From Mustelus asterias (lineage: Eukaryota): a stretch of 64,000 nucleotides of DNA. Below are positions 48,676-62,287 of the stretch, piece after piece (the first letter of the stretch is position 1; each line of letters starts with the position of its first letter). The translations under genes and the position numbers were made by a program. The notes below the pieces were generated by a model that saw only the letters and a list, made by a program, of their open reading frames with translations, did no database searches and had not been told where the DNA came from. Location: the NCBI RefSeq assembly GCF_964213995.1, contig NW_027590185.1:310001-374000 (forward strand), read 5' to 3'.

Positions 48676-49134
48676 ATGAAGATGCTCGTCATTTGGATTG
48701 TGTGGGGGGCATTTCTAACAGGTATTTCTGGGCATCACGTTAGTTTTCTCATTTCCAAAACTTGGGTGGAATCTTACTGTTGATTACACATCACTCTTTT
48801 CTTTATCTATTTGAACATATTTTCCAGGTCTGAGCCATGGAGATTCTGTCACTCAGCCGCTGTCCTCAGATGTTAAGCCAGAAGGAGACGTGGTGACATT
48901 AAACTGCAACTATGATACTGCAGAAACCATCTATAATTTATACTGGTACCGACAGCATCCAGACTCCCAGCCCGAGTACATACTGAGAAGGCCCTCGCGG
49001 GGTAATGAATATAAAGCAGATTTTGCTAAAATCCGTTTCTCGACTGACTTCCAAATCCCGAAGAAATCCATCAGTTTGACTATCTCGGATCTGCAGTTGT
49101 CTGACGCGGCCGTGTATTACTGCGCTTTCAGCCT
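48676..49134 (+). CDS. T-cell receptor alpha/delta V gene segment (TRDV/TRAV-like): leader 48676-48721, V exon 48828-49134
   Basis: MKMLVIWIVWGAFLT/G leader, GT-AG intron, DSVTQ..LNCNY..LYWYRQ..SLTISDLQLSDAAVYYCA. Confidence 0.9.
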
Positions 49135-49173
49135 CACAGTGATGGAAAGCAGCCTGACTCCTGTACAAAAACT
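49135..49173 (+). promoter_or_regulatory. 23-bp spacer recombination signal sequence
   Basis: CACAGTG + 23 nt + ACAAAAACT. Confidence 0.95.
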
Positions 49174-50330: not shown

Positions 50331-50783
50331 GAGTTTCGTACTGGATCCGCTCTATGTATCTATGTGTGCTCCATCGCACGGAAATACACAGCAGTATCCG
50401 ACAGAAGATATAAAGGAACTGTTTTGTTTCCCTTCAGCAAATCTGCAGAGAACTTCGGTTTGGGGACCTTTCTTCACCCCCTAAGCTATATTTCTTCAGC
50501 AAATATCTCGGAGCTTCCCCGGAAGACTGCATGTACCAGAGTAGAGTTAGGGTAGTGTAGATTATCAAGTAACGGCAGTCCAGTCCACACTGTCCTTCCC
50601 GAATTGTCAATTCGAAATGAACCTGGAACACTGAAGTTTTGCCACTCATTCATGTCACACAAATACAGATTGGCTCAAAAGTCAGGGTTTAAAAATAACC
50701 ACTGGATGACATGGTTACCATTTAATAATGGACCCGCCGGGCAGCAAGATCATTATAATCAGTAAGGAGCATGGAGAACACAT
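50331..50783 (-). pseudogene. Inverted TCR V pseudogene
   Basis: Leader MCSPCSLLIIMILLP; ..LDCRY..LLWYMQSSGEAPRYLLK.. then a frameshift to FSADLLKGNKTVPLY-LSDTAVYFRAM (second Cys->Arg); degenerate RSS. Confidence 0.8.
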
Positions 50784-52030: not shown

Positions 52031-53182
52031 GACAATTATTGATCTTTTAATCAACTGCATTCCCGAACCTCCACATTCCTTATGCAAACGTAATTGGAGC
52101 AGCGCTGGTAAGCTTAGTTCCAGCAATGTAGCTCAAACAGACATGAGAGTTTCTTTATTGAATTTTCAGTCATCTACCTGAATCACTCAAACATTCTGGT
52201 TCACTGTGTACCGTTCAGGATACCTGTCACTGAATCAAGTGGTTAGTTGTTTTCCGTCAAACACTTAGTCATCTCGGACCTCTTAATGAGGAAGTATGAT
52301 CTGTATTGCTGAACGTTCCCCTCCAGTTATTTCTCGGATCTGATCTGCTTTCTTCCCGACTACAAGATACAATAGTAAATCTTCCCTCGTTGGTGCTTTG
52401 TCCAGCATTTCGGATTATATAAGCATCTGAAACCAATCGTAGGAAGCTATTCGTTTACCTCCTTTACCGACTTCTTGCATGGAATTAATACGAGACAATA
52501 TAAATCTCCATTACTATTATTGCATAACTTGTCTGCATATTTCTTCCACTATCTTCCTTCCCGGTGCAGAGGCATGATGAGGGACACAATAAGTTCAGAG
52601 ATAGGGTTGTCGAGGTGAAGAGCTATAGAGTGACACGAACATGTACAGATTCCGAAAGATACTGAGAAAGAAACTCCTGATATTGAGTTTGATGTAACGG
52701 TTAAAATGCACTCAGTGTAAACGTTTCCATCGCATCTTCTGATTCTGATTCGCACGCTATCTCTCAAAGGCAATAAAGAAAGACTTCCATTTATATACCG
52801 CCGTTCATGACATCAGGACTTCACAAAGAGCTTTACACCCAAAGAAGTCTTCGAATTTTCATCACTGCCTTAATATAGGAGACGTGGCAGTTAATAGGCG
52901 CGCTTCAAACTCCACAAAGAACAAAGTGATAATCAGGTCATCGATTTTAGTGATATAGATTGGAGGGCTGATGGAAAGTGACATCTGTCAGAAAACCTGT
53001 CATTCTGTCATCTAAGTTGCCATTTCCGCTCATCGGTCGCACAGATATACATTCAAGTTCTCATTTCAGGTTTTGGCTCATTTAGTTCCACTGTTGAGGT
53101 GGAGGGTGGGTGATGCAGGCTTTATAAACCTATTACTAAGGGTCCGAAGCTGTGTTGCTGCTGTGTTCTGTATTCTGATATT

Positions 53183-53535
53183 ATGCATCATTTTCTCTTT
53201 TTGACATCGATATTCATTCTTCTCAGTCAGGCCAGTGAGGAAATGGAGGCAGTGTTTCAGGATCCACCGAGTATCAGAGTGAGTTACGGAGACAGTGTGA
53301 AGCTAAACTGCAATTATTCGACATCACATACTTCTACTGCTTTCTTCTGGTATATTCAGCACCCAGAGAAACACCCTCAATATCTATTGGAAAAAAGGAG
53401 TACTGGAAAAAATGTGACTGCCTTTGGGAAGCGGCTGCTTTATGCTTCTTTAGATAACACAGCAAGAACTGTTCCTTTAAGCATTCACTATGCGCAGTTC
53501 TCTGACAGTGCGATGTATTACTGTGTACTGGGACA
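53183..53535 (+). CDS. TCR alpha/delta V segment with apparently intronless leader
   Basis: Single frame MHHFLFLTSIFILLSQASEEMEAVFQ..LNCNYS..FWYIQHP..PQYLL..TVPLSI..SDSAMYYCVL; TTTATAAA ~60 bp upstream. Confidence 0.85.
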
Positions 53536-53574
53536 CACAGCGTTACCAGGTCAGTAGAGACCCGTACAAAAAAT
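53536..53574 (+). promoter_or_regulatory. 23-bp spacer RSS
   Basis: CACAGCG + 23 nt + ACAAAAAAT. Confidence 0.85.
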
Positions 53575-53969
53575 GTTCCTTCTTTCTAATATGACGTTTT
53601 GACTCCACACAAGGTTGTGGATATTTTGCAACTGCCGCAGCAATGTGATGTACATTCTATTAACTACATTCGACAGTTAAATTTGTCTGTATCTGGTTCA
53701 CTATCTCGTCGGTTGGGCTTTCTCCACCTGCTCAGACTCTTTTCGCAAATCTCTTTATGTGGTTCCCGCATGCCTGACTGTGAGGTTTGTCATTCTCTCT
53801 CTCTCGCTCGCTCCCACATTCTCAGTTTTCTTTTCTCACATTCCCGTTTTTATCGCCCCATCAGACGCATTGCACTCGGTCTCATCTCCCGTTGATTTGC
53901 AATGGTATTAATTATCTCCGAGTATTATCATCCTCTGGGTTGGCATTGAACAGAAACTGAGCTGGATTA

Positions 53970-60025: not shown

Positions 60026-62287
60026 ATCGATAGTGACCACAATTCGGTTACGTTCACCTTAGTGATGGAAAGGGATAGGCATGAACCTCGGGCCAGTGGT
60101 TTTAGCTGGGGGAAGGGTAATTATGAGGCTATTAGGAGAGAATTAGGAAACATAGGTTGGACTAGGAGATTACAGGGACTGGGAACGTCCGACATGTGGA
60201 GTTTTTTCAAGGAGCAGCTACTGCGAGTCTGTGATAGGTATGTCCCTGTCAGGCAAGGAGGAATTGGTAGGGCTAGGGAACCGTGGTGCACCAAAAAAGT
60301 TTCTTTGTTGGTTAAAAAGAAAAAGGAGGCTTATGTTCGGATGAGACGTGAGCACTCGGGTAGTGCACTAGAAAGCTTTAGATTGGCTAAGAGGGAGTTG
60401 AAGAGCGAGCTTAGAAGGGCTAAAAGGGGACATGAGAAGACTTTGGCGGATAGGGTTAAAGAGAATCCTAAGGCGTTCTATAGGTATGTCAAGAACAGAA
60501 GGTTGGTTAGGGCAAGTTTAGGGCCAGTTATAGATGGCAGAGGGAAGTTATGTGTGGAACCGGAGGAGATTGGTGAAGCATTGAACCAATATTTCTCTTC
60601 GGTGTTCACGCAAGGGGACATGAATATAGCTGAGGAGGACACTGGGTTGCAAGGGAGTAGAATAGACAGTATTACAGTTGATAAGGAGGATGTGCAGGAT
60701 ATTCTGGAGGGTCTGAAAATAGATAAATCCCCTGGTCCGGATGGGATTTATCCAAGGATTCTCTGGGAGGCAAGAGAAGTGATTGCAGAGCCTCTGGCTC
60801 TGATCTTCAGGTCGTCGTTGGCCTCTGGTATAGTACCAGAAGATTGGAGGTTAGCGAATGTTGTCCCATTGTTTAAGAAGGGGAACAGAGACTTCCCCGG
60901 GAATTATAGACCGGTGAGTCTCACTTCTGTTGTCGGCAAGATGTTGGAAAAAATTATAAGGGATAGGATTTATAGTTATTTGGAGAGTAATGAATTGATA
61001 GGTGATAGTCAGCATGGTTTTGTGGCAGGTAGGTCGTGCCTTACTAACCTTATTGAGTTTTTTGAGAAAGTGACCAAGGAGGTGGATGGGGGCAAGGCAG
61101 TGGACGTGGTATATATGGATTTTAGTAAGGCGTTTGATAAGGTTCACCATGGTAGGCTTCTGCAGAAAATGCAGATGTATGGGATTGGGGGTGATCTAGG
61201 AAATTGGATCAGGAATTGGCTAGCGGATAGGAAACAGAGGGTGGTGGTTGATAGTAAATATTCATCATGGAGTGCGGTTACAAGTGGTGTACCTCAGGGA
61301 TCTGTTTTGGGGCCACTGCTGTTTGTAATATTTATTAATGATCTGGATGAGGGTATAGTTGGGTGGATTAGCAAATTTGCTGATGACACCAAAGTCGGTG
61401 GTGTGGTAGACAGTGAGGAAGGGTGTCGTAGTTTGCAGGAAGACTTAGACAGGTTGCAAAGTTGGGCCGAGAGGTGGCGGATGGAGTTTAATGCAGAGAA
61501 GTGTGAGGTAATTCACTTTGGTAGGAATAACAGATGTGTTGAGTATAGGGCTAACGGGAGGACTTTGAATAGTGTGGAGGAGCAGAGGGATCTAGGTGTA
61601 TGTGTGCATAGATCCCTGAAAGTTGGGAATCAAGTAGATAAGGTTGTTAAGAAGGCATATGGTGTCTTGGCGTTTATTGGTAGGGGGATTGAATTTAGGA
61701 GTCGTAGCGTTATGTTGCAACTGTACACAACTCTGGTGCGGCCGCACTTGGAGTACTGTGTGCAGTTCTGGTCCCCACATTACAGGAAGGATGTGGAGGC
61801 TTTGGAGAGGGTGCAGAGGAGGTTTACCAGGATGTTGCCTGGTATGGAGGGGAGATCCTATGAGGAGAGGCTGAGGGATTTGGGATTGTTTTCGCTGGAA
61901 AGGCGGCGGCTAAGAGGGGATCTTATTGAAACATATAAGATGATTAGAGGTTTAGATAGGGTGGATAGTGATAGCCTTTTTCCTCTGATGGAGAAATCCA
62001 GCACGAGGGGGCATGGCTTTAAATTGAGGGGGGGTAGTTATAGAACCGATGTCAGGGGTAGGTTCTTTACCCAGAGGGTGGTGAGGGATTGGAATGCCCT
62101 GCCAGCATCAGTAGTAAATGCGCCTAGTTTGGGGGCGTTTAAGAGATCCGTAGATAGGTTCATGGACGAAAAGAAATTGGTTTAGGTTGGAGGGTCACAG
62201 TTTTTTTTTTTATTTAACTGGTCGGTGCAACATCGTGGGCCGAAGGGCCTGTTCTGCGCTGTAATGTTCTATGTTCTATGTTCTATG
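60026..62287 (+). mobile_element. Young 5'-truncated CR1 LINE with uninterrupted RT-containing ORF2 portion
   Basis: ORF to 62185 with KSPGPDG, NYRPVSLTS, QHGF, DFSKAFD, GVPQGSVLGP, FADDTK; 3' (ATGTTCT)n tail. Confidence 0.92.

What the first reader, a model, noticed from the sequence alone, without database searches (positions are those of the whole stretch)
53110..53574. TCR V gene with leader and V in one exon but retaining an intact 23-RSS
Antigen-receptor V genes normally have a leader intron (as V1 does, 106 nt). Here a TATA-like box, ATG, hydrophobic signal and V domain are contiguous, followed by an RSS. Single-exon leader-V is known for some avian V-alpha genes; I am not aware of it in sharks. 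Precise intron loss with the RSS retained would suggest reverse transcription of a germline V transcript, or an ancient intronless TRAV lineage. Caveat: TTCTCAG/TCAG at ~53220-53230 could be an acceptor for an unseen upstream leader.
Basis: partly seen in the sequence, partly recalled or inferred. Interest (0 to 1): 0.7.

Follow-up and report, generated by a model that had tools for sequence, protein, structure and literature searches.

The report
Intronless shark T-cell receptor V genes
This shark T-cell receptor variable gene has a predicted signal peptide and variable domain in one unbroken reading frame before a normal recombination signal, likely because it lost its usual intron in place; the same genome holds a second, larger family of this build that likely arose separately, a layout already known from chickens.

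Summary
Confirmed. Window 53183-53535 is an unbroken ATG-leader-V frame (TCR alpha/delta type), followed by a 23-spacer RSS (53536-53574). It belongs to a 16-copy family (A). No copy has an intron; about 10 look intact. No phase-1 acceptor and no credible upstream leader exon were found. A second, larger family (B, at least 66 copies) is also single-exon, has no AG at the junction, and does not group with A (AU p=0.0003), so there were at least two separate losses. Best reading: precise, in-place loss of the leader intron, probably by recombination with spliced cDNA. It is not a retrocopy: promoter-like motifs, RSS and neighbouring genes are all kept. The retained RSS does not show that a germline transcript was copied. 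Against this reading: the CAG at 53228-53230 scores like a real acceptor, so recruitment of the old intron tail as a new leader remains open (about 20%). Expression was not tested; no RNA run was listed. Single-exon V genes with an RSS are known in chicken (TRAV1, TRGV1).

The parts
53111..53117 (+). TGATGCA, CRE-like promoter motif (label recalled). It is also the breakpoint after which 11 other block copies have lost the gene.
53123..53128 (+). TATA-like box, 60 nt before the ATG (62 nt in the nearest intron-bearing family); exact TATAAA in 11 of 16 copies
53183..53233 (+). predicted signal peptide, 17 codons, contiguous with the V domain; cleavage after Ala17 is inferred from the recalled (-3,-1) rule, SignalP was not run
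53228..53232 (+). former leader-intron position: 53228|53229 by alignment with the nearest family (46-nt exon 1), or 53231|53232 by the 25-codon rule. The acceptor-like CAG 53228-53230 (phase 0) lies here.
53234..53535 (+). TCR alpha/delta-type V region; Cys23 at 53309, Trp41 at 53348, Cys104 at 53522
53536..53574 (+). 23-RSS: CACAGCG, 23 nt, ACAAAAAAT (1 + 2 mismatches to consensus)
48676..49173 (+). neighbour V1: ordinary split-leader V (46-nt exon 1, 106-nt phase-1 intron, 23-RSS); its leader resembles the nurse shark alphaV4 leader primer peptide
50332..50783 (-). neighbour: inverted V pseudogene of the alphaV5-like clade, with a mutated donor and acceptor and a frameshift

Best explanation
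This is a germline shark TCR alpha/delta V gene whose predicted signal peptide and V domain lie in one exon before a 23-RSS; it likely lost its leader intron precisely and in place long ago, probably by recombination with a spliced cDNA, and would still join to D/J by RAG. Shown: one open frame, the RSS, 16 intronless copies in a duplicated block, and a second intronless family that does not group with this one. Inferred: the ancestor was an intron-bearing gene of the clade with the 46-nt leader exon and the 'VFQD' FR1. The loss fused exon 1 to the V exon, with promoter and RSS left where they were. After V(D)J joining the message would need no leader splice. Between an RNA route and a DNA-deletion route I put the odds at about 55:45.
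For: 62 of 73 distinct V exons surveyed have a phase-1 acceptor 22-30 codons before Cys23. This gene has none there, and 8 of the 11 exons without one are single-exon genes of families A or B. In 21 of 23 intron-bearing cluster representatives the acceptor is exactly 25 codons before Cys23. A search of all phases over 4 kb upstream gave only poor leader/donor combinations. Aligning FR1 with the nearest family puts the old junction 46 nt after the ATG, the same exon-1 length as that family. Among 40 distinct spliced leader peptides, the best ungapped match for 2 of 3 family-A copies tested (second best for the third) was this 46-nt leader: 5-6 of 14 identities, 7-17 of 2000 shuffles. Ungapped DNA identity was 18-21 of 46 to exon 1 against 14-18 of 46 to the intron tail. 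The TATA-to-ATG spacing matches (60 against 62 nt). The gene sits in a collinear block with V1 and the inverted pseudogene in the copies compared, with no poly-A seen after the RSS. Family B shows that clean loss occurs in this locus: 0 of 15 distinct junctions have a YAG. The nearest clade has only a 2-nt G|G repeat at its intron ends, which slightly favours the RNA route (inference).
Against: The CAG at 53228-53230 scores 8.4-11.9 on an acceptor matrix built from this locus (real acceptors: median 9.7; top 0.8% of 4342 window AGs). Family A junctions scored 8.9-13.8 in 4 of 4 copies, whereas none of 18 real spliced leader junctions exceeded 3.9. The last 40 nt are 72-78% pyrimidine. DNA-level homology to exon 1 is weak (43-216 of 1000 shuffles), and profile searches found nothing. 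A chance in-frame Met plus hydrophobic stretch from an intron tail occurs in 7 of 62 intron-bearing exons. Family A shows decay: 4 of 16 copies lost Cys104, 1 has a 28-nt spacer and 1 is a full pseudogene; pooled dN/dS is about 0.56 on 28 variant codons. Its place in the tree is unresolved (93/81 with the nearest clade). There are no expression data.
Confidence: 0.6

Rival explanations
1. Intron-tail recruitment: the old leader exon was lost or disabled, a 2-nt slip after the acceptor moved the frame from phase 1 to phase 0, and the pyrimidine-rich intron tail with a chance ATG became a new signal peptide. The gene is still single-exon, but the leader is new.
For: Acceptor-like score at the junction. 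The nearest clade reads CAG|GG-GCA or CAG|GA-ACC where this gene reads CAG-GCC, which a 2-nt loss would give. Intron tails read as Met plus hydrophobic residues in 7 of 62 exons. The region upstream of the ATG aligned with one family's exon 1 plus donor at 0-77 of 1500 shuffles, depending on copy and scoring.
Against: That upstream match was the best of 17 families, weakened under stricter scoring, and was not found with a profile built from 19 members of that family. The intron tails of the nearest clade match no better than shuffles (352-876 of 1000). The leader matches the nearest clade's exon 1 in length and residues.
Confidence: 0.2
2. Not a working single-exon gene: either a hidden upstream leader exon splices in phase 0 to 53231, or the family is a set of non-expressed ORF/pseudogene copies carried along by segmental duplication.
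For: The acceptor-like site is kept in 16 of 16 copies. Six of 16 copies are visibly defective, and 11 block copies have deleted the gene. Shared or distant leader exons are described in newt TRD (PMC12698447, passages).
Against: No credible phase-0 leader exon lies within 4 kb, and all leader introns found here are phase 1. The ATG is kept in 15 of 16 copies with open frames. Between the two main subgroups the coding region differs more (4.6%) than the flanks (1.5-3.3%), with changes in the leader and around CDR1/CDR2.
Confidence: 0.13
3. Retrocopy of an unrearranged (sterile) V transcript inserted at a new site, or an ancient intronless TRAV lineage shared with birds.
For: No intron and a retained RSS. 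Eleven loci share the upstream 1.7 kb without the gene, which could look like empty insertion sites. The family has a long stem (0.7-0.9 changes per site).
Against: The most diverged block copy (L016, 84-89% identical) keeps the gene in place, and the break falls between the two promoter-like motifs, so those 11 loci are better read as later deletions. No poly-A was seen. Families A and B are rejected as one clade (p-AU 0.0003), and B is sister to an intron-bearing family (100/99).
Confidence: 0.07

Closest known systems
Chicken TRAV1 (V-alpha1) and TRGV1 single-exon V genes (PMC10972964, passages read)
   Same: Leader peptide in one exon with the V region, in unrearranged V genes of a TCR locus, as a multi-copy family with many ORF or pseudogene members.
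   Different: Bird, not shark. Homology to the shark families was not tested. The shark genome holds two separate intronless lineages.
Marsupial TCR-mu Vj (TRMVj) (PMC2275272 and PMC6170632, passages read)
   Same: The leader intron is missing; both retrotransposition and genomic deletion were proposed.
   Different: TRMVj is already joined to D and J in the germ line. This gene is unjoined and keeps its 23-RSS.
Ordinary elasmobranch TCR alpha/delta V segments (nurse shark alphaV families, PMC5931798, passages; antigen-receptor complex, PMC12227049, outline, section 6 and passages)
   Same: V-set domain, 23-RSS, and a large scattered V field in both orientations. Neighbour V1 resembles alphaV4, and the nearest family resembles alphaV5 by the primer peptides.
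   Different: Those have the split leader, which PMC12227049 calls 'found in all AgR genes'. No close relative of this family was found among protein representatives (best 46% identity).

Membership tests
TCR alpha/delta V gene (TRAV/TRDV) | V-set domain with Cys23, Trp41, Cys104 | tested here: met
   met in the window copy; Cys104 lost in 5 of 16 copies counting the pseudogene
TCR alpha/delta V gene (TRAV/TRDV) | 3' RSS with 23-nt spacer | tested here: met
   23-nt spacer in 14 of 16 copies
TCR alpha/delta V gene (TRAV/TRDV) | sequence closest to TCR alpha/delta V domains | tested here: met
   best single-domain PDB match is a TCR alpha chain, with TCR delta next; nearest families in the genome are alphaV-like
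TCR alpha/delta V gene (TRAV/TRDV) | linkage to TRAJ/TRAC or TRDD/TRDJ/TRDC | tested here: inconclusive
   Pfam PF09291 and a strict J-RSS pattern both found nothing in the genome, so the probes were uninformative
TCR alpha/delta V gene (TRAV/TRDV) | split leader (L-PART1, V-intron, V-exon) | tested here: not met
   this is the finding itself
TCR alpha/delta V gene (TRAV/TRDV) | use in rearranged transcripts | not testable with these tools
   no RNA holder listed
Single-exon leader V genes (chicken TRAV1 type, as a structural class) | ATG, leader and V in one exon with an RSS | tested here: met
Single-exon leader V genes (chicken TRAV1 type, as a structural class) | functional cleavable signal peptide | tested here: inconclusive
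   8-residue hydropathy 2.7-2.8; SignalP not available; decoy leaders from intron tails exist
Chicken TRAV1 lineage (orthology) | common descent with chicken V-alpha1 | not testable with these tools
   no named chicken TRAV1 sequence was obtained; the QVQQ motif given in PMC10972964 is absent from P0001
Processed retrocopy | poly-A tail, target-site duplication, new genomic site without the parent promoter | tested here: not met
   no poly-A seen behind the RSS; promoter-like motifs and block neighbours are kept; target-site duplications were not searched for formally
Germline-joined intronless V (TRMVj type) | V pre-joined to D/J, no RSS | tested here: not met
   RSS directly after the V

The most novel reading that the evidence does not exclude
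Sharks have made single-exon TCR V genes at least twice by two different routes: family B (at least 66 copies) by clean loss of the leader intron, and family A by building a new signal peptide out of the old intron's pyrimidine tract after a frame slip at the acceptor. This would be a de novo leader in a rearranging antigen-receptor gene.
Probability: 0.2. Interest if true: 0.62.

Novelty: new member of a known kind. Interest (0 to 1): 0.4.

Why it matters
The split leader is treated as a hallmark of antigen-receptor V genes (PMC12227049), and the chicken V-alpha1 leader is described as 'uniquely' single-exon (PMC10972964). At least 82 single-exon V copies in two lineages of one shark genome suggest that the intron is dispensable and has been lost repeatedly. 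This matters for V-gene annotation pipelines that require a leader exon and acceptor. It also gives a test case for how introns are lost from lymphocyte-specific genes in the germ line. It is a structural variant and not a new immune mechanism.

Tried and rejected
(1) RNA evidence: no RNA holder was listed; the four runs laid are DNA-like contigs without joints. This says nothing about expression. (2) Empty-site reading of the 11 loci that break at 53117: the sequence after the break is not found in the 50 kb downstream of the gene, and the most diverged block copy keeps the gene, so I read them as deletions. (3) Word-index protein searches found no scored hits for family A or family B; this is weak, since HMMER found 1444 distant relatives. 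(4) DNA homology of the leader region to other families' exon 1 or intron: global alignments were inconclusive and profiles gave no hit. (5) An apparent decayed exon 1 plus donor at about 53062-53137, resembling one family member, did not hold with a 19-member profile. (6) Constant-region and J searches were blank. (7) A tRNA-like stretch in the deletion copies was not called by ARAGORN. [quoted passage not shown] They and their supplements may mention single-exon V genes. The eLife supplements were listed but not read.

Full report
Observation. The window holds, on the + strand, TGATGCA at 53111, TATAAA at 53123 and an ATG at 53183 that opens a stop-free frame to the RSS heptamer at 53536. 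The protein has a 17-residue hydrophobic N-terminus and a V-set domain (Pfam E 1.3e-13). Its best single-domain PDB match is a TCR alpha chain. The RSS is CACAGCG, 23 nt, ACAAAAAAT; only 3 RSS-like sites pass my scan in 64 kb, 2 of them behind V exons. The neighbour V1 has a normal 46-nt leader exon and 106-nt phase-1 intron, and its leader resembles the nurse shark alphaV4 primer peptide WIVWAV (PMC5931798, passages). On that basis I take the animal to be a shark or close relative. Contigs of four public runs (3 samples, 1 study, kind not on record, DNA-like even cover) show no joint, and one spans 52800-53846, so an assembly error is unlikely.

The family. Protein and DNA searches of the genome both give 16 copies on 16 contigs, all contiguous from ATG to V end; some may be haplotype duplicates. 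Fifteen keep the ATG and an open frame. L016 is a pseudogene with ATA, frameshifts and a 57-nt spacer. Ten of 16 keep Cys23, Trp41, Cys104 and a 23-nt spacer, 6 of them with Tyr-Tyr-Cys; 4 further copies have lost Cys104 and 1 has a 28-nt spacer. The window copy is among the intact ones. The copies lie in a duplicated block of tens of kb with V1 and an inverted pseudo-V. Eleven further loci share the upstream region, break at 53117 between the two promoter-like motifs, and lack the gene. The most diverged block copy keeps the gene, so I read these as later deletions and not as empty insertion sites.

Is there a hidden leader exon? Of 73 distinct V exons surveyed in fetched stretches, 62 have a phase-1 acceptor at the usual place. 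Eleven do not: 8 single-exon genes and 3 degenerate or unclassified. In 21 of 23 intron-bearing cluster representatives the acceptor is 25 codons before Cys23. This gene has no phase-1 acceptor there. The 53231 site is phase 0 and present in 16 of 16. A search of all phases over 4 kb upstream gave only poor candidates. As a control, 7 of the 62 intron-bearing exons also show a Met plus hydrophobic read-through of the intron tail, but each had a real upstream leader exon. An in-frame hydrophobic stretch alone is therefore not proof.

How did the leader arise? For precise loss: FR1 aligns with the nearest clade (62-63% DNA identity in the V exon) with one inserted codon, which puts the old junction at 53228|53229, 46 nt after the ATG. 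That is the same exon-1 length as in that clade. Among 40 distinct spliced leader peptides, a member of that clade was the best ungapped match for 2 of 3 copies tested and second for the third (7-17 of 2000 shuffles). Ungapped DNA identity is 18-21 of 46 to its exon 1 and 14-18 of 46 to its intron tail, neither strong. The TATA-to-ATG spacing is 60 against 62 nt. Against precise loss: the CAG at the junction scores like a true acceptor (8.4-11.9; real median 9.7), and 4 of 4 family copies scored 8.9-13.8 while 0 of 18 real spliced junctions exceeded 3.9. A 2-nt loss after an old acceptor would also give the present sequence. A seeming decayed exon 1 upstream failed a profile test. I put precise loss at 0.6, intron-tail recruitment at 0.2, a hidden leader or dead family at 0.13, and a retrocopy or shared ancient lineage at 0.07. 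RNA-mediated and DNA-deletion models of precise loss (recalled; both are drawn for TRMVj in PMC2275272, passages) cannot be separated here. The RSS is kept in both, so it is not evidence for reverse transcription.

A second family. The survey turned up another single-exon family, B (for example G000:C232:334061-334396, C1151, C420, and a tandem array on C71 near 19.36-19.40 Mb). Of 142 matches, 66 run contiguously from leader to V end at 56-100% identity (counted by hand from the table). None of 15 distinct junctions checked has a YAG, and the leaders begin with basic residues and end in small ones. The RSS heptamers are consensus in 4 of 4 cluster representatives. In a tree of 29 cluster representatives from 117 distinct V sequences (sampling enriched for A and B), B is sister to an intron-bearing family (100/99), while A is unresolved elsewhere. 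Holding A and B together is rejected (p-AU 0.0003; one long row left out; the groups were defined by intron status, but the test was run after I had seen the tree). So there were at least two losses, or an intron regain, which is less likely.

Comparison with what is known. Chicken TRAV1 (45 of 48 genes) and most TRGV1 genes have single-exon leaders, many classed as ORF or pseudogene (PMC10972964, passages). Marsupial TRMVj lacks the intron but is pre-joined (PMC2275272, PMC6170632, passages). [quoted passage not shown] Ten text searches and passages in 13 papers (the five above plus PMC5931798, PMC2193156, PMC5985310, PMC12529555, PMC5192425, PMC5278385, PMC8559430, PMC12698447 and PMC13113880 make up the set) showed no shark case. 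Six papers were not held and no supplement was read, so absence from print is not established. No close protein relative was found (best 46%). The scan's look-ups by sequence and by words were blank.

Verdict. The feature is real. It is a new member of a known structural kind, extended to sharks and recurrent within one genome. Function and expression are inferred, not shown. Interest 0.4.

Noticed in passing
L135:1501-1836 (G000:C232:334061-334396) and at least 65 other places; tandem array G000:C71:19.36-19.40 Mb: Second single-exon leader-V family B, larger and cleaner than the one in the window, in four subfamilies at 56-100% identity; probably the better object for follow-up.
   Followed up: partly
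L035-L038, L040, L045, L050, L052-L055 (break equal to window 53117): Eleven block copies have deleted the V at one shared breakpoint between the CRE-like and TATA-like motifs, with a short CTTT(T)ATA similarity on both sides.
   Followed up: partly
L078, L081, L084, L085, L097, and two copies on C1151 and C232: Intron tails that read in frame as Met plus hydrophobic residues although a true leader exon exists; these are decoys for single-exon annotation and possible alternative starts.
   Followed up: partly
window 50332-50783 (-): Inverted V pseudogene of the alphaV5-like clade between V1 and the intronless V, carried in the duplicated block.
   Followed up: partly
window 63588 (-): RSS-like site (CACACTG, 23 nt, AAAACAACC) with no V exon found next to it; may be chance.
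   Followed up: no
L016 (G000:C119:366904-367342): The pseudogene copy has a palindromic insertion in the RSS spacer that duplicates the nonamer region in inverted form, and a 1.6-kb repeat inserted 135 nt upstream of the start codon.
   Followed up: no
L006, L010, L014, L015: The same double change, Tyr-Tyr-Cys to Cys-Tyr-Arg, occurs in two different sequence subgroups of family A, which suggests gene conversion between copies.
   Followed up: no
L073/L074 (G000:C122) against window 54149 and 60029-62287: A 2.3-kb element sits at about 54149 in the C122 copy and at 60029-62287 in the window: independent insertions of one mobile element in the block.
   Followed up: no
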